Source: Pristiophorus japonicus
Taxonomy: Eukaryota
Length of the DNA stretch: 64,000 nucleotides
Assembly: GCF_044704955.1 (NCBI RefSeq)
Contig: NC_091988.1
Location: 133,982,001 to 134,046,000, forward strand
Reading direction: 5' to 3'
Below the pieces are notes generated by a model that saw only the letters and a list, made by a program, of their open reading frames with translations, was not told the origin of the DNA and did no database searches. This document shows, one piece after another, positions 19,781 through 48,499 of the stretch. The position numbers and the translations under genes were made by a program. Within the stretch, counting starts at the first letter, position 1. Each line of letters begins with the position of its first letter.

Positions 19781-19979
19781 TGGGCATCTAACTTCTGCGC
19801 ACCACAACAACTGCATCATAAGGGGCGATAGACATAACAATACTGGGCTGTAATATTAACCGAAAAGTCACCTTTGTGGCATGCTGTGAAAGATAAGCTT
19901 TTCACTTATTTAAACTATTCGAAAAAGAATAAAAGTTAAAAAAAAGACTGCTTTGTGAAAAGGGAACAACAGAAATACT

Positions 19980-20438: not shown

Positions 20439-20489
20439 ATGATGCTGAACCCACGTCTCCTGGCTTGCTGCATGTTCTGTCTGTTTCAG
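20439..20489 (+). CDS. CD40: CD40 exon 1 (signal peptide MMLNPRLLACCMFCLFQ)
   Basis: ATG at 20439, 17 mostly hydrophobic codons, consensus donor CAG|GTAAGT, phase 0, in frame with exon 2; TATA box upstream at 20251. Confidence 0.8.
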
Positions 20490-22647
20490 GTAAGTTTCAG
20501 TTAGGTGAAAGTTTGTTTCGGGTCTAAGTAAATAGTGAAATATCATTTGCAATTGAGTTAGATTGTATCCTTTTGCATTTTTATGAAAATAATTACATTT
20601 CTTTCTACATATTGATCAAACAGAATATGATAAGAATATGTTAACAGCAGTGACCCAGATTAAACCTGTAGAGACTAAAAGCTAATGGTTGAGGGACACC
20701 GTGGTCCAAGCCCTCCGCCTACTGCACTGCTTGGTATGGCCTGAGATTACATTGATGAGCAACCGTGGAACTGGCCCATGCAGTGCAGGAGGGTCGCAAG
20801 TTGGACCCCAGGTCTGTGCTGAGGGAGCTGGGTCTCAAGCGTGGCGGCTGTGGAGCTGCTCCGATTGGGCTCAGTGTCCTGGGCTAGTGATGGGAAGAGA
20901 AAGACAGATTGCTGTCCGGGCGAGGGTCAGTTGCGATATCCCGCCTGGTGGAATGGTCTTGCCAGCAATCTATCGGCTCAGGCATGTGCCTTGGGCAACG
21001 TTAAAATAAATGACTTGGTGGGAGAGCCGGTGATATGTTATTTTCTCTAGTTTTCACCTGTGCCTTTTGATCTGGCCGGGGACAATAGTTTGTAACCTGT
21101 TGCCTGTCCCGAGACTATTGATTACTGCTGAAAGTTTTCAATCAACAATAAGTTGTATTTATATCGCGCCTTTAACGTAGTAAAACGTCCCAAGGCGCTT
21201 CACAGCAGTATTATAAGACAAAACAGATACATTTGACACCGAGACACATAAGAAGAAATTAGGGCAGATGACCAAAAGCTTGGTCAAAGAGATAGATTTA
21301 AAGGAGGAAAGCAAGGTAGTGAGCGAGAGGTTTAGGGGGGAATTCCAGAGCTTGGGGCCCAGGCAGCTGAAGGCACGGCCACCGATCAGGGATGCTCAAG
21401 AGGGCAGATATCTCTGGGGGGCGTGGAGGTTACAGAGATAGGGAGGGGCGAGGCAATCAGTAGAGAAACTACTGTGTAACACAACCCTGTTTTTCAACCA
21501 ACATAGTTTTGATGTGGTGAGAATGTAGAACTACTGCCTGGAGTGTTTGAGACGAGGGGAAGCTACAGAAATTAATAGAAGCATATGTTGATAATGCCAG
21601 ATGAAATAAATAGTGGGAGGAGGTTCATGGAGCAGTTATAATCAGGGATGCTCAAAAGCAGAATTTGAGGAGTGCAGACATCTGGGCGGGGGGAGGTGGA
21701 GGCTATGAGGCTGAAGGAGATTTCAGAGATATGGAGGGGCGAGGCACCTACCTTGCCTTCAGCTGCCTGGGCACTGTACGCATTGTGTGTGCTGCGTGTG
21801 TGTGCTCCAGCAGTGAGGAGACAACCCCCAGGGCTGCAGAAGTCGCAGGCTCCATTGCTGACTCCCAGGAGCTTTCTGATCTAAGCTGCGCTAAGATTGA
21901 AGTCGCTGTTTACTTTATTATAACCAGGGGCTGAATTTAGTTGGGATTAATTAGTTTCCATCTTCTTTGCAGGCGCAAACTGTGCCTCTACTGTGTGTTG
22001 TCTACAGGAATTGGTCCTATGCTCTATTAGCATAGTAGTGTACAGCGTATAGCATCCTAGAATCTTACAGCACAGAAGGAAGCCATTCGGTCCATCGTGC
22101 CTGTGCAGGATCTTTGAAAGAGCGATCCAATTAGTCCTACTCCCGTGCTCTTTCTCACAGCCCTGCAAATCTTTCCTTTTTAAAGTATATATACAATTCT
22201 TTTTTGAAAGTTACTATTGAATCTACTTAAACTAAATTAGCAGGCAACATTGAAATACTAATTTCTATTTGTTTTCAACCTAGTGAGGGTTTTTGTCTAA
22301 AGATTATTCAGTCCAGGTGATAAGGAGTGTATTACATGGTCACTTCATAATTGGTAGGAAGGGAAGTACAGATAATATTAATCACAAGAGCAAAGCTGAC
22401 ACGGTTTATAATAAGCCTCTGAGGCGTCACACTGTGTATCGAGTAATACCTGGAATGTAGGGCCTGGTGTTTGATGTCCATGAGTGCAAAATACAAGAAA
22501 ATGCAAATGCTAATAATACAAAGCAACTTTAAAATCATGTGATTCCCAGCACGAGAATGTGAGGTTGTTTTTCACAGAGAGGTGCCAGAGTTTTTGGCTA
22601 TCACTAGTGTATATGCATCAATGGAAAATTAACAAAACACTTGCTCA

Positions 22648-22876
22648 TTATCATAGGCAGTCCCTCGTAATTGAGGAAGACTTGCTTCCACTCTTAACAT
22701 GAGTCCTTAGGTGGCTGAACAGTCCAATAGGAGAGTCACAGTCTCTGTAACAGGTGGGGCAGATAGTCGTTGAGGGAAGAGGTGGGTGGGACTGGTTTGC
22801 CGCACGCTCTTTCCGCTGCCTGCGCTTGATTTCTGCATGCTCTCGGCGACGAGACTCGTGGTGTTCAGCGCCCTCC
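22648..22876 (-). mobile_element. RTE 3' fragment
   Basis: HAEIKRRQRKERAAN..CPTC..HLRTH; matches the other RTE 3' ends. Confidence 0.9.
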
Positions 22877-23246
22877 CTTGTTATTGCACGGTGGAATACC
22901 AACATATGATTTCCAGTTATGGGGATAAGTTGCTAGATTATTGTGTTGTAACGTTCATGCCTACTATGATCACTTGGTGCTTGGCTTGTGTTGGGGAGGA
23001 ATTTGACAAGATCACAAGATAATTCTGGATGAAGAAAGCCATTTGGCCCATCTTCATTCATCAATCTGGAGAGATTCAAATATCCCCACTCCCACATTGA
23101 ATAATCAATTGTTTCTTAAATGATTCCAGAGGTTTTATCTCTATTTGGGAGTCAATTCTAATTTGAGCTTGTGTCTCTTAGTTCTATTCCTGTTTAATTT
23201 AAAATAATATGCTAGGTTACTTTTTCTATACCCTTAACAATCTTCT

Positions 23247-23950
23247 CATAAGAACATAAGAATTAGGAACAGGAGTAGGCCATCTAGCCCCTCGAGCCTG
23301 CTCCACCATTCAAAAAGATCATGGCTGATCTGGCCATGGACTCAGCTCCACTTACCCGCCCGCTCCCCATAACCCTCAATTCCCTTATTGGTTAAAAATC
23401 TATCTATCTGTGATTTGAATACATTCAATGAGCTCGCCTCAACTGCTTCCTTGGGCAGAGAATTTCACAGATTCACAACCCACTGGGAGAAGAAATTCTT
23501 TCTCAACTCGGTTTTAAATTGGCTCCCCCGTATTTTGAGGCTGTGCCCCCTAGTTCTAGTCTCCCGACCAGTGGAAACAACCTCTCTGCCTCTATCTTGT
23601 CTATCCCTTTCATTATTTTAAATGTTTCTCTAAGATCACCCCTCATCCTTCTGAACTCCAACGAGTAAAGACCCGGTCTACTCAATCTATCATCTCCGGA
23701 ACCAGCCTAGTGAATCGTCTCTGTACCCTCTCCAAGGCTACTATATCCTTCCTTAAGTAAGGTGATCAAAACTGCACGCAGTACTCCAGGTGTGGCCTCA
23801 CCAATACCCTGTACAGTTGCAACAGGACCTCCCTGCTTTTGTACTCCATCCCTCTCGCAATGAAGGCCAACATTCCATTCGCCTTCCTGATTATCTGCTG
23901 CACCTGCAAATGAACTTTTTGGGATTCATGCACAAGGACCTCCAGGTCCC
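23247..23950 (-). mobile_element. CR1 3' fragment
   Basis: KANGMLAFIARG..VRPHLEYCVQF; CATAAGAA tail. Confidence 0.9.
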
Positions 23951-24002
23951 TTTCGAACAGTCTATGTGTGACCACCAGCATGGGAGTGTGATGTTGTGTT
24001 GC

Positions 24003-24742
24003 CTGTGGCTCAGTGGGTAGCACTCTCATCTCTGAGTCAGAAGGTTGTGGGTTCAAGTCCCACTCCAGAGACTTGAGGCTGACACTCCAGTGTAGTACTG
24101 AGGGAGTGCTGCAATGTCCTGGTGCCGTCTTTCAGATGAGACGTTAGGTTGAGGCCCATTCTGCCCTCTCAGATGGAAAAGATCCTATGGCACTATTGTG
24201 AAGAAGAGCAGGGGAGTTATCCCTGGTGTTCTGGCCAATATTTATCCCTCAATCAACATTACTAAAAACAGATCATCTGGTCATTATCACATTGCTGTTT
24301 GTGAGACCTTGTGTTGCAAATTGGATTCCCACATTAGAACATAAGAAATAGGAATAGGAGTAGGCCATACAACCCCTCGAGTCTGCCCCACCATTCAGTA
24401 AGATCATGGCTGATCTGATCATGGACTCAGCTCCACCTCCCTGCCTGCTCCCCATAACCCCTTATTCCCTTATCATTTAAGAAACTGTCTATTTCTGTCT
24501 TAAATTTATTCAGTTCTCTGAGGCAGCGAATTCCACTGATTTACAACCCTTTGAGGGAAGAAATTTCTCCTCATCTCTGTTTTAAATGGGCGGCCCCTTA
24601 TTCTAAGATCATGCCCTCTAGTTCTAGTCTCTCCCATCAGTGGAACAGGAACCACTCGCCAAAAGTACTTCATTAGCTGTAAAGTGCTTTGGGACATCCT
24701 GAGGTTGTGAAAGGCGCTATAGAAGTATAAGTCTTTCTTTTT
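24003..24742 (+). mobile_element. tRNA-derived Deu-domain SINE (SacSINE1-like) split by a minus-strand CR1 fragment (about 24336-24645)
   Basis: A box GTGGCTCAGTGG, B box GGTTCAAGTCC, central GATGAGACGTT block, L2-like tail ending (TCTT)n; family name from recall. Confidence 0.85.
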
Positions 24743-25699
24743 CCATAACATGATCTCTCAGACTGAAGCGTCTAGGCTGAAAAGTCCAAGTTTCTCATAA
24801 CTCAACTCCTGACATTAAGAATCAGCCTCGTGGCTCTCCTCTGCAACAACTCTTGTGTTTGAGTGCCTCCCTTGTTTTTTAGATGACCAGAAATGAATGT
24901 AGTATTCAAGGTGCAGTTTGACCTGAGCATTATAAGGTTTGACCATTACTTGCTCTGATTTATAGCTTGGTGTTTTGGCTATGTAGTTGGTTCTGTTGAA
25001 CATGTTTAGTTTCAAATCTTCTAAGACTCCTAGGTCTTACAATGGTAACACTATAGCGTTTCAATTTTGCGTCTCCCATTTCTCAACCTATACTGAAGGG
25101 AACCCTCTATCCTCCAACCAACTCTACTTCTCTTGAATTTCTGTAAGATATTTATCTGTAATATATAAAATAAAATGTATAAAATAGGGACGTAATTACG
25201 AGTTTAAAATGCAGACTGCATATTTTATATTATACATCAATATCTTATTAAAAAAACCTTACACCTAGTCCAATTATCCTCCACAGTCTAATCCCACTTC
25301 ATCTAAAGATCACAATAGGTTTAGACTGCCCATGTGCAAGTCACAGGAGATTGACGAGTTATATGCTAAAACCTTTGTGCCCGTAATGTATAAATGTTTA
25401 AATAATAACAAAATTAATATTTTTGTGGCAGTACTTGCATTTCAAATATGAGAAGTGAGAACGTTTGAGGAGTGCAACTTGTGGGTGTAAATTACACTCC
25501 CTATGGTGTCCGTGGGGGTACAGAGCGGCATTTGCTAGAGAGAAGGCAGAATGTGTGAAAAACACAAGGTCCATTCTAAAAGGTATATTTTAAAAACAAC
25601 AATGACACCATTTCCTTTTTGATACAAGTCGAGAAAGTTATACTTTCCAGCTCTTCGTTGCTCTCTAGTTAGGCAAGTAAAACTTTCATTTGTGTACAA

Positions 25700-26495
25700 G
25701 CAGGCTGAGGGATAAATGCTGGCCAGAACACTGGGAAAAATCCACATTTCTTTGAATAGTGCCATGGGATCTTTTACATCCACCTGAGAGAGCTGAGGGG
25801 CCTCAGTTTAACATCTCATCTGAACGACAGCACCTTCAACAAGGCAGTGCTCCTTCAGTGCTGCACTGGAGTGTCAGCCTGGATTATGTGAGGCTTCAAC
25901 CCATGACCTTCTCACTCTGAGGTGAGAGTATTACCACTGAGCCAAGGCTCACTGGCATTCCAGTGTTGGCTACATTTTAATATTAGTGTAGAGCTGCCAG
26001 GACATTCAGCTTTCTGCCAAGATGGGAGTTTGAAAAGTTTACACAGTTAACTTTTTAAAAGTGCCAGTCTTGGCTCAGGGGTAGCACCCTTGCCTCTGAG
26101 TCTGAAGGTTGTGGCTTCAAGTCCTACTCCAGAGATTTGAGCTCATAATATAGGTTGACACACGAGTGCAGTGCTGAGAGAGTGCTGCACTGTCGGTAGT
26201 GTTGTCTTTTAAATGAGACGTTAAACCAAGGCCCTCTCAGGTGGATATGAAAGATCCCATGGCCATGGCACTATTTGAAGAAGAACAAGGAAATTCTCCC
26301 AGTGTAAGAAAATGCTGGAAATACTCAGCAGACCAGACAGCATTGTGGAGAGTTCTCCCAGTGCTCAGGCCAATATTTATCCCTCAATCAGCATCACTAA
26401 ACCAGGTTATCGGGTCATTTATTACATTGCTGTTTGTGGGATCTTACTGTATGCATATTGGCAGCTGGGTTTCCCTACCTTACAACAGTGACTAT
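25700..26495. mobile_element. Head-to-head pair of SacSINE1-like SINEs (25700-25950 minus; 26065-26495 plus)
   Basis: Both match the 24003 element, in opposite orientations. Further copies at about 31740-32155(+), 33965-34112(+), 37040-37235(-), 49435-49725(-), 52232-52362(-), 63285-63500(-). Confidence 0.85.
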
Positions 26496-26957
26496 ATGCG
26501 AGTCCTTCTCTTAAACTCTGCTTTGCACTGATGGCAACCATACCACAGCTGGCACACAGTGAATGTGAATCTAACTCCTTACAGTGGTCTTATACCACAT
26601 GCCAAAATGTGAACTGCCATCAGTTCGACAAAGCTGATGCAGTGTGTGCAGTGTAACGGGCCCTTTAGGTAATTCCCTTTGCTACTGCAGCTAACCAGAA
26701 TCTGCTGCAGCCGTGCCACTCTTATGGGAGCTCAGTCTTGTGTTGGTTTGTCACTAGGGGACTTTTGAAAGTAAACCGTCCTTCCCCACCCAATAAGCTG
26801 TGGTTTAACAGAGTTTCTGGGCTTGTATCAACAGGAAGTCTTTGTTTGTAAACTCTACCTTTTTAACCATTTATTGTAAAATTAAATTAATTTAGAGATA
26901 ATATTATTTGGACTTTTTTCACTGGAAAGCTGTGTGGAGGAACAGGCATCATAATAA

Positions 26958-27340
26958 AACAACAATTTGCTTATATCGCACCTTTATTGTAGTAAAATGT
27001 CCCAAGATGTTCACAGGAACGTAATCAGGCAAATATTGACACAGAGGTGACCAAGAGCTTGGTCAAAGATGTAGGTTTTAAGGAGCATCTTAAAGGAGGA
27101 GAGAGTGGTTTAGGGAGGAAATTCTAAGACCTAGACTGCTGAAGGCACGGCCACCAATGGTGGGGCAATGAAAATTGAGGATGCACAAGAGGCCAGAATT
27201 GGAGGAACGCAGAGTTCTTGGAGGTTTGTGAGGCTAGAGGAGATTACATAGCTAGAGAGAGGTGAGGCCATAGAGGTATTTGAACATGAGGATGAGAATC
27301 TTAAAATGGAGGAATTGCTGGACCAGAGGCCAATGTAGGT
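26958..27340 (-). mobile_element. L2 3' fragment (others at about 9630-9880, 21145-21452, 21630-21745, 36255-36545)
   Basis: Shared L2 3' sequence (gcacctttaacgtagtaaaacgtcccaagg...agcttggtcaaa...ggttttaagga). Confidence 0.8.
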
Positions 27341-27719
27341 GAGGAAACAAGAAGTCCTGATTGGCTGATGTCAGGCTGCAGATTGCAGGGGGAAGGGGAG
27401 ACTGGGGAAGTAGCAAGTTGCAAGGGAAGCTGTTTTGGATCGATTCAGTGAAAGTGATGTGAGCATTTGGATGATTCCTACTTAATTATATACATCTCCA
27501 GGAGATGCGGTTAGCAAGAATGTCTAAAAATAACATGGGTGAATTGTAACATGCAGCGACAAGGGGTAAACTCTTTATTTGGGGAATTTTTTCCACCCCC
27601 CCCCCCCGCACTTATAGAAAGAAAGCAAGGAAGATACAGCGCCTTTTACGATCACGTCTCAAAGCGCTTTACAGCCAATGAAGTACTTTTTGGAGGGTAG
27701 TCACTGTTGTAATGTGGAA

Positions 27720-28203
27720 AACATCCCCAGCATTGAAGCACTGACCACGCTTGATCAGCTCCGCTGGGCAAGTTTCATTGTTTGCATGCCAGACACGAGA
27801 CTCCCAAAACAAGCCCTCACTTGGAACTCCCTCACAGCAAACGAGCCAAAGGTGGGCAGTGGAAATGTTACAAGGACACCCTCAAAACCTCCCTGATAAA
27901 GTGTGACATCCCCACTGACACCTGGGAGTCCCTGGCCAAAGACCGCCCTAAGTGGAGGAAGTGCATCCGGGAGGGCGCTGAGCACCTCGAGTCTCATCGC
28001 CGAGAGCATGCAGAAATCAAGCGCAGGATGCAGAAAGAGCGTGCGGCAAACCAGTCCCACCCTCCCTTACCCTCAGCGACTATCTGCCCCACCTGTGACA
28101 GAGACTGTGGTTCTCATATTGGACTGTTCAGCCACCTAAGAACTCACTTTAAGAGTGGAAGCAAGTCTTCCTCGATTCCAAGGGACTGCCTATGATGATG
28201 ATG
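27720..28203 (+). mobile_element. RTE 3' fragment inserted in a minus-strand SacSINE1-like SINE (about 27615-28280)
   Basis: RTE C-terminus, (ATG)n tail, TSD-like AATGTGG(G)AAA on both sides. Confidence 0.9.
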
Positions 28204-31200
28204 AATGTGGGAAACGTAGCAGCCGATTTGTGCACAACAATCTCCCACAAACAGCAATGTGATAATGACCAGATAATATAATTTGGAACAAAGGCTGGTT
28301 TTATAGCAAACAGCAGTTTAGTATAGAGGTCCTACTTAAAAAATAAACACCTTCCTTTGGAATAAAATCAATCAATTGCAAAGAAACTGGTTATCACGGA
28401 GCAGAAAGAGGGCATTTTTTCCAATCGTAGCTATGTCAATGCTAGTGTCTTTAACTGACACTATCTACTCTTAATCCCAATTCCCCGCTCGTTCCTATCT
28501 ATGTGTTAGTAAAATTCTGGTGTAGGCCATGTTCTTCCTAGCCTCAAACTTTACTTCCTGTTGTCCTGATTTTTGGGCACACTTTTCTGCCAACATTTAC
28601 CAACGTAAATTGCAATGACATTTCCCATTCAATGTTTCTGTGCAGTTGCGGGCTCTATCACCACATGGACTGCAGCAGTTCAAGGAGAAGACCCATCATC
28701 CCCTATTCAGAGCAATTAGGGACGGCCAATAAAAGTGGCCTTGCCAGCATCATCTACATCCTGCGAACAAATATTGTAAAGGTCCATGGCCACCAGGTGG
28801 TGCTGTGGAGCAAGTTTCTGAAGACCCTCTCCCAACTCAGTCACCATCTTGAATATAAAACTTACATCCATCAACTGACCATGGACAATGTCACAGGCAA
28901 CTTACTAGAATCTTATAATATTTTTTCAAAGAGTCCTTGGCGAGTTGCTGCAGTGAATCCTATAGATAGTATAAACTGCAGCCACACTGCGCCGATGGTG
29001 GAGGGAGTGGATGTTTCAGGTAGTGGATGGGCTGATGATCACGCCATCTCAAGACCTTTCCTAATTTTGAAAACTCCTATTAGATTAATCTGCTTTCTTG
29101 CAGTGAAAAAGGCCTTGATCTTTGAGCTCTTTCTGATTGCTGTAACCTCTCATTCTCAATATCAATCCAGTAAATCTTCACTGCACCCTTTCCATGACTC
29201 TAATATACTTCTTATAACAAGGTTCCTGTATAGAACCTAGAATTCTCTTTCTACCACCTTTAACGATCGACGTATCCGCACTCCTAGATCTCTCTGTTCC
29301 TCCACTCTTTAGGAATCTTACCAGTTAAGCTGTACATCCTTTCCTACATTACAACAGCGACTACACTCTAAAAGTACTTTATTGGCTGTAAACCACTGGT
29401 CATGAAAGGCGCTATATAAATCCAAATCTTTCTTTCTTTCATTGTTCTTTTACTTAAAGTAGGCTATGTTACAATTTTTCTGAATTGAACTGCCTCTGCC
29501 ACCTCTCTGCCCACTCCTCAAAACTGTCTATGTCCCCTTGCAATCCCCTGGACTCTTCCTCACAGATTGCTGTGCCTAATTTGGTTTGATCAATAAACTT
29601 CTACATTATGCCTCTTGTGCCTATGTCCAAATCATTTATATAATTGGAAAACCAAAGAGGCCCCAGCACAGATCCCATCATCTACATCACACCAAGCCAA
29701 AAAAAAAATACCCTATTCTCTACTCTTCTGGCCATTCCTCTATCCATGTGGCTATATTAAGTTTGATTCCTGGTCAGTTAGCTGAAGACAGTTGGGGTGC
29801 GAAAATTGGCCTCAGCACCTTTGGAGTAGGGAAGATGCAAATCAACTGAGGTCTATGCTTCTGGTTGCGCTCCCCGTGACCCCTCTCCCCAGTAAGCTGT
29901 GCTGAAGTTGGGTAAGGACAGGATTGGGCTCAGCTGCCAATACCTTGCACAGTTGAACAACCTGCCGCCATTCACTGTCTGGAGTCACTGAAGAAAAGCT
30001 ACTCAGACGAGGAACTAAAAGGTGATTGGCATCGATGGCACCGAATGCCAGAGAGGTTGACACGTCTTCAGAGAGAAGGGGGAGGAGGGGGGGGAGAAAA
30101 ACCAGCACAAGCAGACAACAATTCCTTCTTTACATGCTGCATCACCGACTACTATGACTATAACAAGTATAAATTACTGTAAGTATGATCGAATAACAGT
30201 CGAATCACATGCCGGGTGTGTCCTGGAGGCTAATTCACTGGGGAGGGGGCGGGGGGGAACAGATGTCAGTTAATGTGCAAAACCACAGGATGGCGGCGGG
30301 GGGTTTCACAGGAAAAACCCTAGCATACCAGGTCCGGTACAAAGTAGATGCACAGCCACATACATCACTCTCTGCTTTCTCGCTGCTATCTTTTCAGCAT
30401 TCTGTTTTGCATAAGCCAAAACACCATGTTCGAAGCGTGCATGAAAATAAATGAGGAAGTTGTATTTGAGGGAAGTAGATGGATGCAGTGTTCCTGAACT
30501 GTCGCCAGCCAGCATCACTGAGCAAAGCCAGATAAAGGTTTGATCGGATTGTTGGAGGTGCCAGTGCACACCGCACCACGAAGACCTGTTCAGCTGCATT
30601 CGAGTCGTGAAGACATTCAGCGCTTGTGCTCATATCATCAACAGTAGTTTACAGGATCCGGTACATCTTCTGATCTCGGTCACACATCACAGGGAAACAT
30701 TGCGCTCAAGCCGGGTGTGTTCCCACAAATAAGGAGGAAACAAATGGGAGGAAGTGTAATTCAATACGGATTACATGCATATAAAATGGTAGCACTGCAG
30801 GAGGCCTCAGACATGATCCTCTATTTGCCCACCAGATGGGGCAGGTAGAAAAACTGGATGGTCTAAGCTTAACTCCAGCTCACACGGGTGGGATTAATGT
30901 CTCCTCTATCTCTTAACTGTAAGGGCCCGATGTAAGTAAGTTTGGGCAGCCTTGATGCAGTTTCTAGCAGAGGCATCAGGTGCAAAGACAGTCCTGTCTA
31001 GCAATCGCATTCAAAGAGGCTGAGGTTTGGGAAATGGAAACATGATTACACTTGGTGCTGTAGGAGTCACTCTTCTGAGCCCGGGGCTGAGGAATGCTGT
31101 TGAGTCGAATACAAGGAGCTTTACACTGCATCTGGCTGTTAGACCTGACCTGGGACTGCTTGATGCTGATACTGGGTGGCTGAACTGGGAAGAGTTCCAA

Positions 31201-36847: not shown

Positions 36848-36929
36848 TGTTGTCCCGTCTCGAGCAACGCCTGCGATAGCGTGGCCCAGTACTCAAAGTT
36901 CGGCAAGTGTTGTTCAAAGTGCCCGGCTG
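36848..36929 (+). CDS. CD40: CD40 exon 2 (CRD1 N-part: CCPVSSNACDSVAQYSKFGKCCSKCPA)
   Basis: Acceptor tgcttctttctcag, donor G|GTGAGT; TNFR C..Y....CC..C.G pattern. Confidence 0.92.
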
Positions 36930-37725: not shown

Positions 37726-37851
37726 GCACCTACACTAGGAGTGAATGCACCGAGGAAAAGGATGCCGAGTGCCATCCTTGTGGCCATGGACTTTATCAAT
37801 CAGAGTGGAACACATTGGACCATTGCCAAATGCACAAAAGCTGCAACAGTA
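37726..37851 (+). CDS. CD40: CD40 exon 3 (CRD1 C-part and CRD2 N-part)
   Basis: Acceptor tttgtttttgcag, donor A|GTAGGT; 126 nt; GTYTRSECTEEKDAECHPCGHGLYQSEWNTLDHCQMHKSCNS. Confidence 0.93.
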
Positions 37852-38643: not shown

Positions 38644-38788
38644 AATATGATTTAACAAAATTATAATTCTCCTTCACTATTACATCACTTTGTGTATTAA
38701 TGGACATGTTCATGCCTCAAATGTGATATGCTGTTAGTTTTGTCCTTTTAACTCTTTACTGTTTCTCTCTCTCTCTCTCTCTTTTTAG

Positions 38789-38938
38789 ATGGAGGATTTG
38801 AGGTACAAGAGGCTGGCACCGTTCACAGCAACACAATCTGCCGATGCCAAGCAGGGAAGCATTGCGTCAATAAGGACTGTGAAATCTGTAAAGACAACGA
38901 CGACTGCGAACGTGGCTACGGACTCATTGACATAACAG
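38789..38938 (+). CDS. CD40: CD40 exon 4 (CRD2 C-part and CRD3)
   Basis: (CT)n polypyrimidine tract then ttttag, donor G|GTAAAA; NGGFEVQEAGTVHSNTICRCQAGKHCVNKDCEICKDNDDCERGYGLIDIT. Confidence 0.93.
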
Positions 38939-39154
38939 GTAAAACCCACCACAAATGGCCCTAGCACTTCTAAGGCATGGAGGGAGCGAAACATCAGGCG
39001 GAGGGGGTGGGGGGTTCTCGTTCTGAGAATGAACAAACTATTCCCTCCTGGATTGGGTCATAGCTTTGTGAACTAAATGAACATCAGATTGTTTAGTGAC
39101 GGGAGGAGACCATTAGGCCCAAGAAACCTGTTTGTGTTTTTTAAAGCTCCTTAA

Positions 39155-39752
39155 ACTTAAGCTCGTCCAAAACTCTGCTAACCCATTTCCTAACTCGCGG
39201 CAAGTCCTGTTCACCCATCATCATCATCATAGGCAGTCCCTCGGAATCGAGGAAGACTTGCTTCCACTCTTAAAATGAGTCTTTAGGTGGCTGAACAGTC
39301 CAATACGAGAACCACAGTCCCTGTCACCCCTGTGATCACTGACCTACAATTGGCTCCCAATCCAGCAATGCTTCAGATTTAAAATTCTCATTCCTGTGTT
39401 CAAATCTCTTCATGGCCTCACCTCTCCAGCCCTACAACCATCCGAGACCTCTGCGTTCATCCAATTCTGACCTCTTGTGTATCACACCATCCTTTCATCC
39501 CATTGGTGGACGTGCCTTCAGCTGTCTAGGCCTTAAACTTTCCCGAAATCTCACCGCCGTCTCTCTCCTCTTTCAAGACACTCCTTAAAACTGACCTTTT
39601 TTAACCAAGCTTTTAGTCACCTGCCCTACGGTCCCTGTCTTAATAGTTCCTCCTTGGGCTCGATGTCAATCTTTGTCTGTATACGCTCCTGTGAAGCACC
39701 CCGGGATGTTTTTACTGAGTTAAAGGTGCTATATAACTGCAAGCTTTTGTTG
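39155..39752 (+). mobile_element. L2 3' fragment with nested RTE tail (about 39215-39325, minus)
   Basis: Homologous to the L2 3' ends at 18690, 21150, 26960 and 9640; interrupted by (CAT)n-AGGCAGTCCCTCG. Confidence 0.8.
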
Positions 39753-39870
39753 AGGCACAGAGGGAGCTAAAGTGTGCACTGCAATATTTCTGAACACTTT
39801 ACAAATAAAGATGCCAGCCCTGTGGTTTGTAGAATATCATTCTAAATCACGCTGTGCTTTTTTTGCTCAG

Positions 39871-39967
39871 CAGATGAGGATTTCAGCAGGCCAGGGTGTG
39901 AGAAATGTAAGCCTGGATATTTTTCGAACATAACCTCTAAATCGGAAACCTGCAGGAAATGGACCGA
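39871..39967 (+). CDS. CD40: CD40 exon 5 (CRD3 end and CRD4)
   Basis: Tandem acceptor ttttgctCAG|CAG (alternative start 39874), donor GA|GTAAGT; ADEDFSRPGCEKCKPGYFSNITSKSETCRKWT with N-glycosylation sequon NIT. Confidence 0.92.
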
Positions 39968-40785
39968 GTAAGTCTAGCACTGAATGAATTTATCCAGGGT
40001 CATCCCAGAAATAATCTGCCATAAAATGATCAGAACAGCTGCCTGATAGCCTCGCGGGTAAAGGCGGGCCTGATGTAGGACTGGGACATGCAGGGCAGAA
40101 TGTCCTGGTCTGGCCTGAGTTTGCTGATCTCACCCAAGGTGGGAGTTAAGAGTACACCGATTCTACTTTGGACCTGCAGTCTAGGGAAGGGAAAAAAACA
40201 GCCAGCTTCCATGGTGGGGAAAAATATCAGGCATGTTCCTGATTTCTGTCTAGTGACATCACCTGGAAAGAGTGTGGTGCAGTGCATGTGCAATTTAAAT
40301 ATCTCTTTTATCATGCTATTCTTCAAATAAGTTGTTTGCTGTGATAGGAGAGTTAAAGTACTAGAAGTTCAGTTTTAATGGAGAGTTAGGGTATTAGAGG
40401 GAAGGGCTTTAATGAGAGAGCCTGGGATAGGTTTAATGGAGGTAGGGTACTAAAGGGATTGGTTCTAATAGAGAGATAGGATATTCGAGGGGTGAGTTTT
40501 AATAGCAGCGTTTGGGTACTGGAGGTAAGTTTCAATGGGAGAGTTTGGGTATTAGAGGGGTAAATTTCAATCGAGACGCTGACTTTCAATGGGCCAAATG
40601 GCCTTTCCCTTCCGTGACTGTTATGTTCTTGTGACAATGTCTGAATGTTGGGTCCTTACATTGCCATGCAGCAACAGCACCACCTGTTGGCCAAGTTTGA
40701 AGGAGCACACACTCAGTTTTGCACAAATCTGGAGCTGCCTTATCGGCCAACTGATGGCAGCTGCCTGGTTGTACGGGGGGGCAAG

Positions 40786-41436
40786 CACAATGGAGTGCTC
40801 TCTACACGGGAGCCCTCCCTTTATTTACTGGGGACTTGGTCTGGAGGGTGTTACACAGAGCAATCCCGTGCAATAGGTTTTTAAGTCGGTTCACGGACTC
40901 CCAAGCTGCCTGTAATTTCTGCGGTCTAGAGGAGTCCGTGTTCCACGTCTACGTTGACTGTGTGAGGTTGCAACCCCTCTTCCAATATTTGATGGGGCTG
41001 CTCCTCAAATTCTGGTTGCACTTCAGTCCCACGTTCCTGATCTTTGGGCACCCTGTGCGGAGGGGAGCGGGTAAGTCTGAGGGCCTCCTCATGGGCCTGC
41101 TCCTGGGCACGGCCAAGGGGGCCATGAACCGGTCCAGGCAGCGGTCGGTCGAGGGGGACGTTCAGCCCGACTGCCTGCCTCTCTTCCACGGTTACATCCG
41201 GGCCAGGGTGTCCCTGGAGATGGAGCACGCGGTGTCCACCGGTACGCTCGCGGCCTTCCGCGAGAGGTGGGCGCCGGAGGGACTGGAGTGCATCATCACC
41301 CCCGGCAACCAAATTTTAATTTGATTTAAGTTTACGGTCAAAAGTTGAATTTGTTTAATGTGTCAGTTTTAGTGCTCCCACCCCCCCACCCCCCCTTAAT
41401 CAGGGGGCACTTGATTTATATTTTTAACTAAAATAG
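40786..41436 (+). mobile_element. Tx1/L1-clade LINE 3' fragment (ORF2 C-terminal zinc knuckle)
   Basis: ORF 40836..41324 has WRVLHRAIPCN..CNFC..EESVFHVYVDC (CCHC); TSD TTGTACG(n)CAAG on both sides. Confidence 0.85.
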
Positions 41437-41521
41437 TTGTACGGGGCAAGAGTCTGTCGGGGGAGGGACAACGGGAAAAGGGTGAAAAATAATAACTGTA
41501 CTTTCCATTTTCTGCTCTTAG

Positions 41522-41577
41522 CTGTGGGTCACTCCAAATGCTGGTGAATGGCACTGCAACAACGGATGTGATATGTG
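41522..41577 (+). CDS. CD40: CD40 exon 6 (CRD4 C-part)
   Basis: Acceptor ttttctgctcttag, donor G|GTGAGT; DCGSLQMLVNGTATTDVIC with sequon NGT. Confidence 0.92.
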
Positions 41578-42086
41578 GTGAGTATGACTCCGAGAGAAGT
41601 TCTTTCCTCAATCTTCTTGGGAAGCAAGGAATGATTGTGGCCCAAATCAAATGAAGTCAGTGGAAATGGAAAAAGGGGGGAGATGTATAATGGGAGTCTG
41701 ATCTGCTATCGCCGGTCTTACACTGGCTCAAAGTCAAAATGACCTCCACTGTCACACACTAAAAATCATTCCTTTTGCAAACACGAAACTATAGACTTCC
41801 TCATCTGTGAATCTTCCCTATATCCTCCAGTCTGAAGGCTTTTAAAACCCCTGCTTGATGTAGTCTGATCTCTGCCTCTCCATTTATCTTTGTCTTCGAT
41901 CCAACTTTTCTCAAACTGGCTGGCGTCCTGATCTGTGGACGCTCAACAATAAAACAGGCTTGAGTCAGAAGGTCCTGTCGGTGACCTGACCAGTCCAGTG
42001 ACAGTGAGCAGTTGGCTGTAGGACATTGGAGGTCTCAGCAAGTTTAGTTATGGGGCACTCTGACCTGCCTGGCCCTTTTCCATACT

Positions 42087-43275
42087 AAACATAGAAACAT
42101 AGAAAATAGGTGCAGAAGTAGGCCATTCGGCCCTTCGAGCCTGCACCACCATTCAATAAGATCATGGCTGATCATTCCTTCAGTACCCCTTTCCTGCTTT
42201 CTCTCCATACCCCTTGATCCCTTTAGCCGTAAGAACCATAACTAACTCCCTCTTGAATATATCTAATGAACTGGCATCAACAACTCTCTGCGGCAGGGAA
42301 TTCCACAGGTTAACAACTCTCTGAGTGAAGAAGTTTCTCCTCATCTCAGTCCTAAATGGCCTGCCCCTTATCCTAAGACTGTGTTCCTTGTTTCTGGACT
42401 TCCCCAACATCAGGAACATTCTTCCCGCATCTAATCTGTCCAGTACCATCAAAATTTAAAATGTTTCTATGAGATCCCCTCTCATCCTTCTAAACTCCAA
42501 AGTATAAAGGCCCAGTTGATCCAATCTCTCCTCATATGTCAGTCCTGCCATCCCTGAGTGGGATTTTTTAACTTCAGTGGGGGTGTTCCTGGTATTTCGC
42601 AGGAACATACCATGCAGGTTATTTTTTTGATTTTTTAAAAATATATTTTGAAAACTGATTGCCTCCCCAGGTGGTCTTTGAAAAATACAAAATGGCATCT
42701 GAGACCCGAGAATATAATGGCGGGGAAGAGGAAATTGAGGGAACAAAGTGGATTATTTTGTTTTGTTTCTCAATTCTCACCATTTCCTGTGGCAGCATTT
42801 ACTGAGGCTGGTGGGCCCCACAGCTGTGGGTTACAATCATAAGAACATAAGCAATAGGGGCAGGAGTCAGCCCTATGGCCTCACGAGCCATAAGATCTTC
42901 GACTTCAGCTCGACTTTCCTGCCCGATCTCCATATCTCATGATACCCCTAAAGTCCAAAACTCTATTGATCTCAGCCTTGAATATACTCAAAGACTGAAT
43001 CCACAGCGGCAGAGAATTCCAAAATTCACAACTCTCTGAGTGAAGAAATTCCTCCTCATCTCAGTTTCAAAAAGCTGACCCTTTAACCTGAGACTGTGAC
43101 CCCTGGTTCTAGACATTTCAACCAGGGGAAACAACCTCTCAGCATCTACCCTGTCAATCTCAGAATCTTATATGTTTCAATGAGTTCATCTCTCATTTCT
43201 CTAAACTCCAGAAAGTATGGGCCCAATCTACTGAATCTCTCCTCATAGGACAACCGTCTCATTCCAGTGAACCTT
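42087..43275 (-). mobile_element. Two CR1 3' fragments (42087-42553 and 42837-43275)
   Basis: CR1 C-terminal peptides and CATAGAAA / CATAAGAA tails. Confidence 0.88.
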
Positions 43276-43634
43276 GATTTGGTGGTGGAAGCTTAAAACT
43301 GTCTCTGAGCAATGGAAGACAATGAGATTCTGAAACTGGTGGCGCTGGATTGAATGGACACAGATATCTCCAGTTAGACTTGGGCCCAATTAAAATATAA
43401 TCAAGGCTCTGGCTTCAAACTCCAATTTACTGCGTGGGCACTCATTCAGAGGTGATGGATCTAAATCACTGGTATTGGATAGCCTGATGGTGCATAATGC
43501 ACTGTATCATTGATTGATAGAAGTCAGGTGGTGAGGTCTGATGTCTGGCCCAGTGAGGTAGATTTTCACCTGCCAGTCTCTTCACGGTGAATTGTGCCAA
43601 CTTGTACCAGGAGGTAGGATCACATCTGAAAATC

Positions 43635-44078
43635 TCCAGATGGTATGTTCCGCAGTCTCTCTCTGTGAGGTAGGATTGTGCCACCCATTCTCCAGATGGT
43701 AGGTTCCACTGCCTTTGCACCCACCCATTCTCCACTTGGTAGGTTCCACTGTCTCTGTGAGCTAGAATTGTGCCACCCGGTCTCCAAATAGTGGGTTCCA
43801 CTGCCTTTTCACCCACCCATTTGACACTTGGTAGGTTCCACTGTCTCTCCCTGTGAGCTAGAATTGTGCCACCCAGTCTCCAAATAGTGGGTTCCACTGC
43901 CTTTTCACCCACCCATTCTCCACTTGGTAGGTTCCACTGTCTCTCACTGTGAGCTAGGATTGTGCCACTCAGTCTCCAGATAGTAGGTTCCACTGTCTCT
44001 GTCTGTGAGGTAGGACTGTGCCACCTATTATCCAGATGGTAGGGTATGCTATCTCTCTCTCTGTGAGGTAGGATTGCC
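43635..44078. repeat. Composite tandem repeat (about 92-96-bp dimer of two GGTTCCACTG-containing subunits), CD40 intron 6
   Basis: CACTTGGTAGG recurs at 43733, 43825 and 43921; GGTTCCACTG recurs every 40-55 bp. Confidence 0.9.
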
Positions 44079-44330
44079 TTGCTTGTGAAGTGGAATCACA
44101 CCTGCCATGCTCCACATGCGAGCTCACCTGTCTGACACCAGATAAGCTGCTTGCCCACAGCGAGGGGTGGGGGTGAATAGAGGCAAGCCAACTGCACCTC
44201 TCTCACTCAGACCACCCACTCATCATTTACAGTGATACAGTCCAACCTACAGGTAAATAAAAAAAGGAGATGGAGTGATATAATTTGTTAAAGAATCTGG
44301 ACTATTTATTGCTGTATACTCTGTTGTCAG

Positions 44331-44441
44331 GTACCCCTGAACCTCCATCCAAGGTGGGATTAGTCACGGTGATAATATTCCTTAGTGCACTACTTGCTGC
44401 CATCGTATTGTCTTTCTTCATATTTTATGGACGTAATCAAG
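44331..44441 (+). CDS. CD40: CD40 exon 7 (stalk and transmembrane helix)
   Basis: Acceptor ctctgttgtcag, donor G|GTAAGT; GTPEPPSK-VGLVTVIIFLSALLAAIVLSFFIFY-GRNQ; lies inside ORF 44285..44533. Confidence 0.92.
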
Positions 44442-44568
44442 GTAAGTGGTTAAGACATTCCATTTTGTGTATTTTTTTTACTAGTTTTGTGAATTTTATA
44501 CATGTCAGGATGAAGGATGTTGGACCTGTGTAATGTGACACTCTCCATTTTGGGTGTTCATTCTCAGT

Positions 44569-46475
44569 ATCAAACACTCCCAGGGCAGCTACAGCACAGG
44601 TTAGATACAGAGTAAAGCTCCCTCCACACTGTCCCATCAAACACTCTCAGGGCAGGTACAGCACGAGGTTAGATACAGAGTAAAGCTCCCTCTACACTGT
44701 CCTATCAAACACTCTCAGGGCAGATACAGCACAAGGTTAGATACAAAGTAAAGCTCCCTCTACATTGTCCTATCAAACACTCCCAGGGCAGGTACAGCAT
44801 GGGTTAGATAGAGAATAAAGCTCCCTCTATACTGTCCCATCAAACACTCCGAGGGCAGGTACAGCACGAGGTTAGATACAGAGTAAAGCTTCCTCTACAC
44901 TGTCCTATCAAACACTCCCAGGGCAGGGACATCATGGGTTAGATACAGAGTAAAGCTCCCTCTACACTGTCCCATCAAACACTCCCAGGGCAGGGGCAGC
45001 ATGTGTTAGATATAGAGTAAAGCTCCCTCTACACTGTCCCATCAAACACTCCCAGGGCAGGGACATCATGGGTTAGATACAGAGTAAAGCTCCCTCTACA
45101 CTGTCCCATCAAACACTCCAGGGCAGGGGCAGCATGTGTTAGATATAGAGTAAAGCTCCCTCTACACTGTCCCATCAAACACTCCCAGGGCAGGGACAGC
45201 ATGGGCTAGATACAGAGTACAGCTCCCTCTACACTGTCCCATCAAACACTCCCAGGGCAGGGACATCATGGGTTAGATACAGAGTAAAGCTCCCTCTACA
45301 CTGTCCCATCAAACACTCCCAGGGCAGGTACAGCACGGGTTAGATACAGAGTAAAGCTCCCTCTACACTGTCCCATCAAACACTCCCAGGGCAGGGACAG
45401 CACGTGTTAGATACAGAGTAAAGCTCCCTCTACACTGTCCCATCAAACACTCCCAGGGCAGGGACATCATGGGTTAGATACAGAGTACAGCTCCCTCTAC
45501 ACTGTCCCATCAAACACTCCCAGGGCAGGTACAGCACGGGGTTAGATACAGAGTAAAGCTCCCTCTACACTGTCCCATCAAACACTCCCAGGGCAGGTAC
45601 AGGGGGTTAGATACAGAGTAAAGCTCCCTCTACACTGTCCCATCAAACACTCCCAGGGCAGGTACAGCACGGGTTAGATACAGAGTAAAGCTCCCTCTAC
45701 ACTGTCCCATCAAACACTCCCAGGGCAGGGACAGCATGGGTTAGATACAGAGTAAAGCTCCCTCTACACTGTCCTATCAAACACTCTCAGGGCAGATACA
45801 GCACAAGGTTAGATACAGAGTAAAGCTTCCTCTACACTGTCCCATCAAACACTCCCAGGGCAACCAGGGGGTTAGATACAGAGTAAAGCTCCCTCTACAC
45901 TGTCCCATCAAACACTCACAGGGCAGGGACAGCACGTGTTAGATACAGAGTAAAGCTCCCTCTACACTGTCCCATCAAACACTCCCAGGGCAGGGACATC
46001 ATGGGTTAGATACAGAGTAAAGCTCCCTCTACACTGTCCCATCAAACACTCCAGGGCAGGGGCAGCATGTGTTAGATACAGAGTAAAGCTCCCTCTACAC
46101 TGTCCCATCAAACACTCCCAGGGCAGGTACAGCATGGGTTAGATACAGAGTAAAGCTCCCTCTACACTGTCCCATCAAACACTCCCAGGGCAGGGACATC
46201 ATGGGTTAGATACAGAGTAAAGCTCCCTCTACAGTGTCCCATCAAACACTCCCAGGGCAGGGACAGCACGTGTTAGATACAGAGTAAAGCTCCCTCTACA
46301 CTGTCCCATCAAACACTCCCAGGGCAGGTACAGCACGGGTTAGATACAGAGTAAAGCTCCCTCTACACTGTCCCATCAAACACTCCCAGGGAAGGTACAG
46401 CACGGGTTAGATACAGAGTAAAGCTCTGTCCCATCAAACACTCTCAGATCAGGTATAGCACAACTAGATATGGTG
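44569..46475. repeat. 67-bp minisatellite, about 28 copies (CD40 intron 7)
   Basis: Unit CCCAGGGCAGGTACAGCACGGGTTAGATACAGAGTAAAGCTCCCTCTACACTGTCCCATCAAACACT. Confidence 0.98.
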
Positions 46476-47008
46476 CAGAATTCCCTATACTGTGATCCAA
46501 CAATGTGTCTCAAGCCCACCCTCAGAAGACCACCCCCTACCGTACTTGTGTGGCAATTTTCACTTCCAGTATGTGTCTTCCTGGGCCATGAATCGATCTT
46601 TTGGGTGAGACGTTAAGCCAAGGCTCCATCTGTCTCTTTGGGTCAATGTTAGACATCCCAATGGCATCAACATCCCTCCTTCAGCCAACAGCACTAAAAT
46701 CACATCAATTGGCCACTTACTATTTAGAGTATTATGGAAACATTTGCAGGACTTTGCGCACTTCATAAGAATTAATTGGCAGTGAAGGACTTTGGGGTGG
46801 CCTGGTGAGGTGGTTTATAAATGAATGTTCTTTCCTTAATGATGAGCTGTTGATGTGTGCCTACTGGGAACTATGTAAAGACCGTGCAGACTTAATTCAC
46901 ATACAGCAGGGAAGGACATTTTATACTGAATTCCACCCATACTTGGGTGATGGGTGCTGGCTGGGTACAGTCTCACAGGTGATTACATTGTGTGTCTCCC
47001 TCTTTCAG

Positions 47009-47046
47009 AAAATCGGACTAAAATAATGGATGCCATCAGCAGGCTG
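47009..47046 (+). CDS. CD40: CD40 exon 8 (juxtamembrane cytoplasmic, ENRTKIMDAISRL)
   Basis: Acceptor tctccctctttcag, donor CTG|GTAAGT; phase 1 to phase 0 bridges exons 7 and 9. Confidence 0.85.
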
Positions 47047-47116
47047 GTAAGTTATGCTATAAATGATTTGGTAGCATTCAGTACTTCCGCCAAGTGTAAT
47101 ATTTCACATGTGAGCC

Positions 47117-48145
47117 TGATAGGGGGAGGGGTCACTGATCGGGGGAGGGGTCACTGACGGTGATCGGGGAGGGGTCACTGATTGGGGAGGGGTCACTGAC
47201 GGTAATTGGGAAGGGGTCACTGATTGATCGGGGGAGGGGTCACTGACGGTGATCGGGGAGGGGTCACTGATCGGGGAGGGGTCACTGATGGTGATCGTGA
47301 GGGGTCACTGATTGGGGGAGGAGTCACTGACGGTAATTGGGGAGGGGTCACTGATCAGGGAAGGGTCACTGATTGATCGGGGGAGGGGTCACTGATGGTG
47401 ATCGGGGAGGGGTCACATTGATCGGAGGAGGGGTCACTGATTGATTGGAGGAGGGGTCACTGATCGGGGAGGGGTCACTGATCGGAGGAGGAGGTCACTG
47501 ATCGAAGGAAGAGTTACTGATCGGGGAGGGGTCACTGTCAGTGATTGGGGAGGGGGTCACAGACAGTGAGATGGGGAGGGGTCAGTGATTAGGGCAGGGG
47601 TCACTAAGTGAGATGGGGAGGCGTCACAGTGATTAGCGGAGGGGTCACAGTGAGATGGGGTGGGGTCAGTGATTAGGGGAGGGGTCACAGTGAGATGAAG
47701 AGGGGTCAGTGATTAGGGGAGGGGTCACAGTGAGATGGGGAAGGGTCAGTGATTAGGGGAGGGGCTCACAGTGATTGGGGAGGGGTCACTGACAGTGATT
47801 AGGGGAGGGGTCAATGATTGGCGTGCGGTCACAGTGAGATAGGGAGGGGTCAGTGATTAGGGAGGGGGTCACTGAGTGATTAGGGGCGGGGTCAGTGATT
47901 AGGGGCGGGGTCAGTGATTAGGGGTGGGGTCAGTGAGATGGGGTGGGGTCAGTGATTAGGGGTGTGGTCAGAGATTAGGGAGGGGTCACAGTGATTGGGG
48001 CAGGGATCAGCGATTAGGGGCGGGGTCAGTGATTACGTGTGGGGTCAGAGATTAGGGAGGGGTATCAATGATTGGGTTGGGGTCAGTGATTAGGGGCGGG
48101 GTCAGTGATTAGGGGAGGGGTCAGTGATTAGGGGCGGGGTCACAG
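47117..48145 (+). repeat. G-rich 18-20-bp minisatellite, about 50 copies (CD40 intron 8)
   Basis: TGATCGGGGAGGGGTCAC units grading into GTGATTAGGGGCGGGGTCA. Confidence 0.96.
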
Positions 48146-48376
48146 GCTGTGGTTCACTCCCTGGGCTGGTGACGGTGCAGCCAGCGAGTGTCTCTAACGC
48201 TGCTACGGCTGGGAGCAGGTCAGTGGCTCAAGACCAGGACTTGAATCGGGGACCTTTCTGGTTGCTACATTGCCACGAATGGGGCAATTATTGTTGCTAA
48301 ATAGTAAAATGAAAATTGAGCTTTGTGTTTTATCTTTTGATAAACTGCCAAGGTGACGGTGTATCTATGTTTTTAG

Positions 48377-48499
48377 CTGAAGTCGGGCGACAAGGCTATC
48401 GCGCCAATCCAGGAGCGGACTGAGAACGGCAGGATAGTCGCCACGGCTGGAGATGAGGATAAGTGCACTGAGGATGGCACTGAGCTTCTGCCTGTGTAA
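48377..48499 (+). CDS. CD40: CD40 exon 9 coding part (cytoplasmic tail with PIQE motif, stop TAA)
   Basis: Acceptor tatgtttttag; LKSGDKAIAPIQERTENGRIVATAGDEDKCTEDGTELLPV*; PIQE fits the TRAF2/3-type (P/S/A/T)x(Q/E)E consensus. Confidence 0.85.
   Translation: MKSGDKAIAPIQERTENGRIVATAGDEDKCTEDGTELLPV

What the first reader, a model, noticed from the sequence alone, without database searches (positions are those of the whole stretch)
20439..48499. Complete cartilaginous-fish CD40-like gene with human-like exon architecture, mostly missed by the ORF track
Seen: nine small exons spread over 28 kb of repeats splice into an uninterrupted 277-aa TNFR-family receptor. Established (recalled): human CD40 has nine exons with the same phases, identical exon 1 (51 nt) and exon 3 (126 nt) coding sizes, and 277 aa. 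Inference: this is the CD40 orthologue of an early-diverging jawed vertebrate, relevant to the origin of T-cell help for B cells.
Basis: partly seen in the sequence, partly recalled or inferred. Interest (0 to 1): 0.7.

Follow-up and report, generated by a model that had tools for sequence, protein, structure and literature searches.

The report
One of three shark CD40 genes
This intact, already annotated shark gene is the first of three neighbouring copies of what is likely the immune receptor CD40; it keeps one of human CD40's adaptor-binding motifs, lacks the other two, and ends in a conserved motif predicted to bind scaffold (PDZ) proteins.

Summary
The nine exons are real and spell a TNF-receptor-family membrane protein. 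It is already annotated as sawshark "TNFRSF5-like" with 276 aa. The 277-aa version uses the upstream AG of a tandem acceptor; the annotation, shark orthologues and a relative's transcript favour 276. It is not the sole CD40 orthologue. Two more intact CD40-like genes (B, C) follow in tandem, and B's first exon lies in this window. A+B+C form one clade (99/95); pairing any single copy with bony-vertebrate CD40 is rejected (AU p 0.003-0.036). The ectodomain cannot decide between CD40 and RANK (p 0.50). CD40 is favoured by the short tail, tail motifs, a separate RANK gene, and linkage to CASS4, PCIF1 and NCOA5. The proposed microsynteny fails: NCOA5/SLC12A5 lie 28.7 Mb away with no receptor beside them. 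The exon layout is largely shared with RANK. Gene A keeps PxQE (13/14 orthologues), lacks the TRAF6 and QExGK motifs (0/14) and ends in a PDZ-type motif (14/14; background 9/148). B and C keep QExGK. Ligand and expression are untested. The scan noted the same triplet earlier in another genome (e1-9966948).

The parts
20439..20489 (+). Gene A exon 1 (coding, 51 nt), signal peptide
   Evidence: identical to P0001 residues 1-17
36848..36929 (+). Gene A exon 2 (82 nt), start of cysteine-rich domain 1
   Evidence: joint to exon 3 in one contig of run X7, a related species
37726..37851 (+). Gene A exon 3 (126 nt), CRD1/CRD2
   Evidence: joint to exon 4 in contigs of runs X1 and X7
38789..38938 (+). 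Gene A exon 4 (150 nt), CRD2/CRD3
   Evidence: best PDB match human CD40, E 4e-7; joint to exon 5 in run X7
39874..39967 (+). Gene A exon 5 (94 nt with the second AG; 97 nt from 39871 with the first AG of a tandem acceptor)
41522..41577 (+). Gene A exon 6 (56 nt), end of CRD4
44331..44441 (+). Gene A exon 7 (111 nt), transmembrane helix
   Evidence: hydropathy; helix 195-221 in the model
47009..47046 (+). Gene A exon 8 (38 nt), juxtamembrane; also 38 nt in genes B and C
48377..48499 (+). Gene A exon 9 (coding, 123 nt with stop): PxQE motif, TENG motif, C-terminal hydrophobic-x-hydrophobic motif
61997..62041 (+). Exon 1 (45 nt) of the next CD40-like paralogue, gene B; its other eight exons lie beyond the window (C12:134,061,390-134,080,133)
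   Evidence: 81% identical to residues 1-16 of P0016; model
44569..46426 (.). 67-bp tandem array (about 28 copies) in intron 7
47117..48143 (.). G-rich tandem array with a unit of about 19 bp in intron 8

Best explanation
Gene A encodes an intact single-pass TNF-family receptor, the first of three tandem copies that likely arose from the one ancestral CD40 gene early in cartilaginous fishes; it likely binds trimeric CD40 ligand and is predicted to signal through TRAF2/3 at its PxQE motif, without a TRAF6 site, while its conserved C-terminal motif is predicted to bind a PDZ scaffold. Shown here: the gene structure, the three-gene cluster, their common clade, the motif pattern, a separate RANK gene and the chromosome linkage. 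Inferred: CD40 rather than RANK ancestry, the ligand, the TRAF use (from human CD40), PDZ binding, and a division of labour in which A kept the proximal PxQE site while B and C kept the distal QExGK...xE block.
For: Cluster: exon 4 finds two further copies 45 and 163 kb downstream; both give open frames with TM and tail (B 303 aa complete; C 304 aa, exon 1 not found). A, B and C are 38-46% identical. Each has counterparts in other species, A and B in a chimaera too. Trees on 166 ectodomain columns: A 100/95, B 100/95, C 100/98, A+B+C 99/95. AU rejects A+CD40 (p 0.003), B+CD40 (0.033) and C+CD40 (0.036). For CD40 ancestry: a separate RANK-like gene on C5 groups with RANK (86/82; 146 against 107 bits). 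Lengths of about 276-313 aa match CD40 (median 303), not RANK (median 578). An A-tail profile ranks CD40 tails in 6 of its top 7 hits among 70 tails, and the [TSV]EN[GHY] motif is in 12 of 32 CD40, 1 of 22 RANK and 0 of 12 LTBR-like tails. The same chromosome carries CASS4, PCIF1, a KCC-type SLC12 gene and NCOA5. CD40 and CASS4 records share contig lengths in turkey and newt (indirect). No TNF receptor lies in the 600 kb around NCOA5 (the control search with 13 bony CD40 sequences gave 76 hits at the cluster). Motifs: PxQE in 13 of 14 A tails; TRAF6-type PxExx(aromatic/acidic) in 0 of 14 (11 of 13 bony CD40); QExGK in 0 of 14 A, 3 of 3 B, 3 of 3 C, 11 of 13 bony CD40; terminal hydrophobic-x-hydrophobic in 14 of 14 A against 9 of 148 other hits. 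Residues 246-276 are the best-conserved part (85% against 72-83% for the CRDs). One CD40L candidate lies 0.38 Mb from RBMX, the neighbour named in PMC7674686 (passages).
Against: The ectodomain tree is unstable: A+B+C joined RANK (91/86) in the careful tree and CD40 (82) after one long row was removed; A+B+C+RANK is not rejected (p 0.50). Best BLAST class was CD40 for 10, RANK for 3 and tied for 1 of 14 proteins, by small margins; exon 3 alone scores RANK slightly higher. Microsynteny with NCOA5/SLC12A5 is absent. The CD40L candidate's best structure matches are TRAIL and RANKL before CD40L, so its identity rests on synteny. QExGK is not CD40-specific (11 of 22 RANK, 11 of 12 LTBR-like tails). 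The 14 A tails are related, so 14 of 14 is one conserved event, not 14. The fifth residue of PxQE(T) is not T in A. Two AU p-values are near 0.03, on a short alignment. There are no binding or expression data for this species.
Confidence: 0.65

Rival explanations
1. The three genes are a RANK-sister or otherwise separate ancient lineage that keeps a short CD40-like tail and binds another ligand of the CD40L/RANKL/TRAIL cluster.
For: The careful tree joins A+B+C to RANK at 91/86 and AU does not reject it (p 0.50). The genome has several TRAIL/RANKL-like ligand exons (judged by eye from the translations). PMC11762692 (passages) lists extra ligands TNFSF11B/F4 and TNFSF-F3 in this cluster.
Against: A RANK gene exists elsewhere. 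No other CD40 candidate was found by a genome search (best candidates only) or beside NCOA5, yet sharks have CD40L (PMC6001812 passages; PMC10529500 passage). Tail length, tail motifs and chromosome linkage are CD40-like.
Confidence: 0.13
2. Gene B is the functional CD40 for T-cell help, and gene A is a diverged copy that now serves another ligand or cell type (for example polarised epithelium, through its PDZ-type end).
For: B keeps the QExGKES...QE end of bony CD40, and the chimaera B protein is the one NCBI names TNFRSF5 without '-like'. A lacks two of the three sites listed for human CD40 in PMC3408473 (passage).
Against: A keeps PxQE where B has PxPE. B+CD40 as an exclusive clade is rejected (p 0.033). 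A's ligand-binding domains are well conserved (76-81% column identity).
Confidence: 0.17
3. Gene A is the single one-to-one orthologue of human CD40.
For: Nine exons, similar length, best PDB and Foldseek match to CD40.
Against: Two intact tandem paralogues; A+CD40 rejected, p 0.003; tail less CD40-like than that of B.
Confidence: 0.04
4. The exon chain is a chance assembly or a pseudogene.
For: No transcript of this species was seen; 5 of 8 junctions have no read support here.
Against: Open frame, canonical splice sites, an annotated protein, orthologues across sharks, rays and a chimaera, and spliced contigs from relatives.
Confidence: 0.01

Closest known systems
CD40 / TNFRSF5 of bony vertebrates (human ectodomain PDB 7p3i, 3qd6)
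   Same: Four cysteine-rich domains, about 40% identical, cysteines aligned; single TM helix; short tail without death domain; PxQE motif; TENG motif as in ray-finned fish CD40; same linkage group.
   Different: Three tandem copies instead of one; A has no TRAF6-type motif and no QExGK...QE block; A ends in a hydrophobic-x-hydrophobic motif (1 of 13 bony CD40 tails has one); not next to NCOA5.
RANK / TNFRSF11A
   Same: Ectodomain almost equally similar (32-33% to mouse RANK); exons 2-5 nearly the same sizes and phases; sister group in one tree.
   Different: RANK is about twice as long (median 578 aa), and this genome has its own RANK-like gene on C5 with a candidate 631-nt cytoplasmic exon.
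Annotated chondrichthyan 'TNFRSF5-like' proteins (P0001-P0014; P0016, P0018; P0017, P0019)
   Same: P0001 is this gene's product; the others are its A, B and C counterparts.
   Different: The databases give nearly all of them the same automatic name and do not separate the three groups.
LTBR / TNFRSF3 and HVEM / TNFRSF14
   Same: Same fold; LTBR-like tails also carry QExGK.
   Different: Separate clades with their own shark members; lower scores (65 and 31 bits).

Membership tests
TNF receptor superfamily | Cysteine-rich TNFR repeats | tested here: met
   Pfam PF00020, 46.3 bits over cut-off 29.4; Foldseek top hits all TNF receptors
TNF receptor superfamily | Signal peptide and one transmembrane helix | tested here: met
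   hydropathy; helices 5-17 and 195-221 in the model (mean pLDDT 66.6)
CD40 (co-orthologue) | Groups with bony-vertebrate CD40 to the exclusion of RANK | tested here: inconclusive
   with RANK 91/86, with CD40 82, AU p 0.50
CD40 (co-orthologue) | RANK accounted for by another gene in the genome | tested here: met
   C5 gene falls in the RANK clade, 86/82; BLAST 146 against 107 bits
CD40 (co-orthologue) | Short tail without death domain | tested here: met
   tails 56-61 aa in A, 84-104 aa in B and C; only PF00020 found in P0001
CD40 (co-orthologue) | On the chromosome that carries the human 20q13 genes | tested here: met
   CASS4 0.2 Mb, PCIF1 11 Mb, SLC12A5-like and NCOA5 29 Mb away on C12; the human locations are recalled
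CD40 (one-to-one orthologue) | Single copy, exclusive sister of bony CD40 | tested here: not met
   three intact copies; AU p 0.003
CD40 (one-to-one orthologue) | Adjacent to NCOA5/SLC12A5 | tested here: not met
   NCOA5 is followed by troponin-C-, sorting-nexin- and ACOT8-like exons (names recalled from the translations); no TNF receptor in 600 kb
CD40 (function) | TRAF2/3 site PVQET-like | tested here: met
   PxQE in 13 of 14 A tails; motif only, fifth residue differs, binding untested
CD40 (function) | TRAF6 site and distal second TRAF2 site | tested here: not met
   0 of 14 A tails have PxExx(aromatic/acidic) or QExGK; human sites from PMC3408473
CD40 (function) | Binds CD40L | not testable with these tools
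   needs a binding assay
CD40 (function) | Expressed on B cells and antigen-presenting cells | not testable with these tools
   only contigs from related species, tissue not on record
RANK | Long cytoplasmic tail with several TRAF sites | tested here: not met
   276 aa against a median of 578 aa

The most novel reading that the evidence does not exclude
Cartilaginous fishes split the single CD40 of other jawed vertebrates into three receptors more than 400 million years ago and divided its signalling tail among them. One CD40 ligand would then give different outputs depending on the copy a cell expresses, and copy A is a TRAF6-independent, PDZ-anchored CD40 with no counterpart in bony vertebrates.
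Probability: 0.3. Interest if true: 0.6.

Novelty: new variant of a known kind. Interest (0 to 1): 0.35.

Why it matters
A CD40-like gene in a shark is expected and annotated, so it says little new about the origin of T-cell help. The cluster matters more. Sharks mature antibodies without classical germinal centres and have CD40L-expressing helper-like T cells (PMC10529500, passage), so studies must ask which of three receptors receives that help. Expression counts that merge 'TNFRSF5-like' genes would blur the answer. The three tails are a natural dissection of CD40's adaptor sites, and the ends of A are a concrete, testable lead for a PDZ-anchored CD40.

Tried and rejected
(1) Idea that the locus is a 14q11-type ohnologue (adaptin gamma plus EFS neighbours): rejected. 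The CAS gene's best non-shark matches are CASS4, and PCIF1, SLC12A5-like and NCOA5 are on the same chromosome. (2) A fourth, NCOA5-linked CD40: none in 600 kb (one spurious non-cysteine hit). (3) Complex prediction of the A ectodomain with three copies of the CD40L candidate's last exon: no answer (0.34, control 0.33). It is not used as evidence; the ligand chain lacked its first strand and the alignment was not used. (4) Sequencing runs: no holder on record as RNA; the eight listed had shares of 0.05-0.06. Four were laid on exons 2-6 only; the exon 5-6 joint was not among the rows shown (128 joints not shown), and joints 1-2, 6-7, 7-8 and 8-9 were not tested. (5) Single exons against Pfam: 0 of 6 over cut-off; the cysteine pattern search was uninformative. 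(6) Exon 1 of gene C was not found. (7) The Atlas did not hold the CAS exon; for P0001 it returned TNFRSF5-named clusters first by features and RANK first by structure. (8) Promoter motifs near A (NF-kB-like, GAS-like, TATA) are each expected 0.2-0.7 times per 500 bp by chance and are not used. (9) Literature: nine searches gave no paper whose listing or read passages describe three chondrichthyan CD40 genes; most listed papers were not opened. Subscription journals are not covered. Only one short supplement of PMC10529500 was held (0 hits), and the elephant shark genome paper's supplements were not read; either may bear on novelty and expression. Rows left out: 27 of 165 in the overview tree for short coverage or excess length, among them the chimaera C-type fragment P0078; one long-branch row; the aberrant tail of P0019.
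Full report
Observation. A splice-site scan recovered nine exons between 20439 and 48499. Joined, they give one open frame with canonical AG/GT ends and phases 0,1,1,1,2,1,1,0. The protein has a signal peptide, 20 ectodomain cysteines, three N-glycosylation sequons (two of them extracellular), a TM helix and a short tail. A search with exon 4 returned the gene's own annotated product, P0001 ('TNFRSF5-like', Pristiophorus japonicus by the source's label, 276 aa). It differs from the 277-aa model by one residue at the exon 4/5 joint, where the acceptor is a CAG-CAG tandem. Most shark orthologues align without that residue, and a contig of run X7 has 23 letters across the joint, the number the 94-nt exon gives. 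So 276 aa is the better model. Contigs from related species (the runs are only guessed to be RNA, and their letters differ from the window at many places) join exons 2-3, 3-4 and 4-5: 3 of the 4 junctions inside the stretch laid, 3 of 8 in all.

Family. P0001 passes the Pfam TNFR cut-off. Its best solved relatives are human CD40 (120 bits), RANK (98), OPG (69) and LTBR (65). Foldseek on a moderate model (mean pLDDT 66.6, tail disordered) ranks CD40 first and RANK next. A search with P0001 gave 15 hits among 812 candidates; the 14 named ones are all from sharks, rays or a chimaera.

A cluster, not one gene. The genome search with exon 4 found two more copies, 45 and 163 kb downstream on the same strand. 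Gene B (303 aa, nine exons) starts inside the window at 61997. Gene C (304 aa, exon 1 not found) is also open throughout; its third intron has a GC donor. All three have a 126-nt exon 3 and a 38-nt exon 8. They are 38-46% identical to each other, but B is 67% identical to a horn-shark protein and C 58-59% to ray and whale-shark proteins. A and B counterparts share a contig length in the chimaera and in horn shark, A and C in a ray; a partial chimaera protein matches C at 60% over 119 aa. The duplications therefore likely predate the chimaera-elasmobranch split, dated about 420 million years ago in the abstract of PMC6238376 (search listing).

Trees. An overview tree of 138 rows and a careful tree of 48 rows by 166 columns give A, B and C as separate groups within one clade (99/95). 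AU tests reject any one copy as the exclusive sister of bony CD40 (p 0.003, 0.033, 0.036). Where the clade sits is not resolved: with RANK at 91/86, with CD40 at 82 once one long row is dropped, AU p 0.50. Of the 30 proteins looked up, most carry source names; other rows were classed by tree position. PMC11762692 (passages) reports a similar failure of trees for chondrichthyan CD40L, which was settled by synteny.

Other evidence on CD40 versus RANK. A RANK-like gene lies on C5 and falls in the RANK clade. A, B and C have CD40-like lengths, and the A tail profile prefers CD40 tails, weakly (best E 0.001 among 70). Upstream neighbours are an adaptin-gamma gene and a CAS gene, the latter closest to CASS4. 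PCIF1, a KCC-type SLC12 gene and NCOA5 are on the same chromosome, 11 and 29 Mb away. No TNF receptor lies in the 600 kb around NCOA5, while the same search lights up the cluster. So chromosome-level linkage is met and microsynteny is not. Together I put CD40 co-orthology at about 0.8-0.85.

Tails and mechanism. PMC3408473 (passage) lists three human sites: QEPQEINF (TRAF6), PVQET (TRAF1/2/3/5) and SVQERQ. In 14 A tails, PxQE is present in 13, a TRAF6-type motif in 0 and QExGK in 0; all 14 end in hydrophobic-x-hydrophobic, against 9 of 148 other hits and 1 of 13 bony CD40 tails. That this is a class II PDZ-binding pattern is recalled, not tested. The last 31 residues are the best-conserved region of A (85%). 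B (3 of 3) and C (3 of 3) keep QExGK with a distal acidic block, but have PxPE or PVQV at the proximal site; B has a near-match to the TRAF6 pattern with one extra residue. The likely mechanism for A is clustering by trimeric CD40L on helper T cells, TRAF2/3 recruitment at PxQE and NF-kB activation, without the TRAF6 arm and with PDZ-dependent localisation. Every one of these steps is inferred. One CD40L candidate was found among 28 TNF-domain matches, 0.38 Mb from RBMX; by sequence alone it resembles TRAIL and RANKL more. CD40L is reported in catshark (PMC6001812, passages) and in nurse-shark helper-like T cells (PMC10529500, one passage).

Novelty. The gene is annotated and a shark CD40 is expected. 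Nine literature searches showed no description of the triplet or of the tail pattern, within the limits given under Tried and rejected. I read passages only, of PMC11762692, PMC6001812, PMC10529500, PMC7674686, PMC3408473, PMC9857879, PMC6238376 and bioRxiv 2024.07.27.603686. An unreviewed note of this scan from another genome (e1-9966948), seen after my analyses, says the same about three copies and split tails; it is not independent support. Verdict: a real gene, a modest variant of a known kind, interest 0.35.

Noticed in passing
window 13700-14500: CpG-rich stretch (observed/expected 0.99 at 14001-14500), probably the promoter of the adaptin-gamma gene that runs on the minus strand, head to head with gene A about 6 kb away.
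   Followed up: partly
L041:3586-3789 (C12:133,955,586-133,955,789, minus): AP-1 gamma-adaptin-like gene next to CASS4; a second copy is on C13 (90% over this exon). Human has no such gene at 20q13 (recalled), so it may be a duplicate lost in mammals.
   Followed up: partly
L015:4435-4560 (gene C exon 3): The in-frame 126-nt exon ends at a GC donor; a GT four bases later would shift the frame.
   Followed up: no
window 19939-20439: NF-kB-like, GAS-like and TATA-like motifs within 350 bp upstream of gene A, none upstream of gene B; each is near chance expectation.
   Followed up: partly
L011:619-780 (C12 about 134,116,600, plus): An isolated strong exon candidate between genes B and C with no Pfam match; it may belong to another gene inside the cluster.
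   Followed up: partly
G000:C19:10.5-11.24 Mb (L093, L098, L101-L103, L105, L107-L109, L111): A cluster of at least 11 TNF-family ligand exons, six of them near-identical recent copies.
   Followed up: no
L069 (C12:139.83 Mb), L067 and L068 (C1:353.9-354.1 Mb): Three OPG/DcR3-like decoy receptor genes, two in tandem on C1 and one on the CD40 chromosome.
   Followed up: no
window 16690-18240, 58845-61042, 53305-54638, 3866-8600: Remnants of LINE-type retroelements and of a DNA transposon, judged by eye from their translations.
   Followed up: no
P0015, P0016: Annotated isoforms in relatives skip exon 4 (A type) or the TM exon (B type), which would give shortened or soluble receptors.
   Followed up: no
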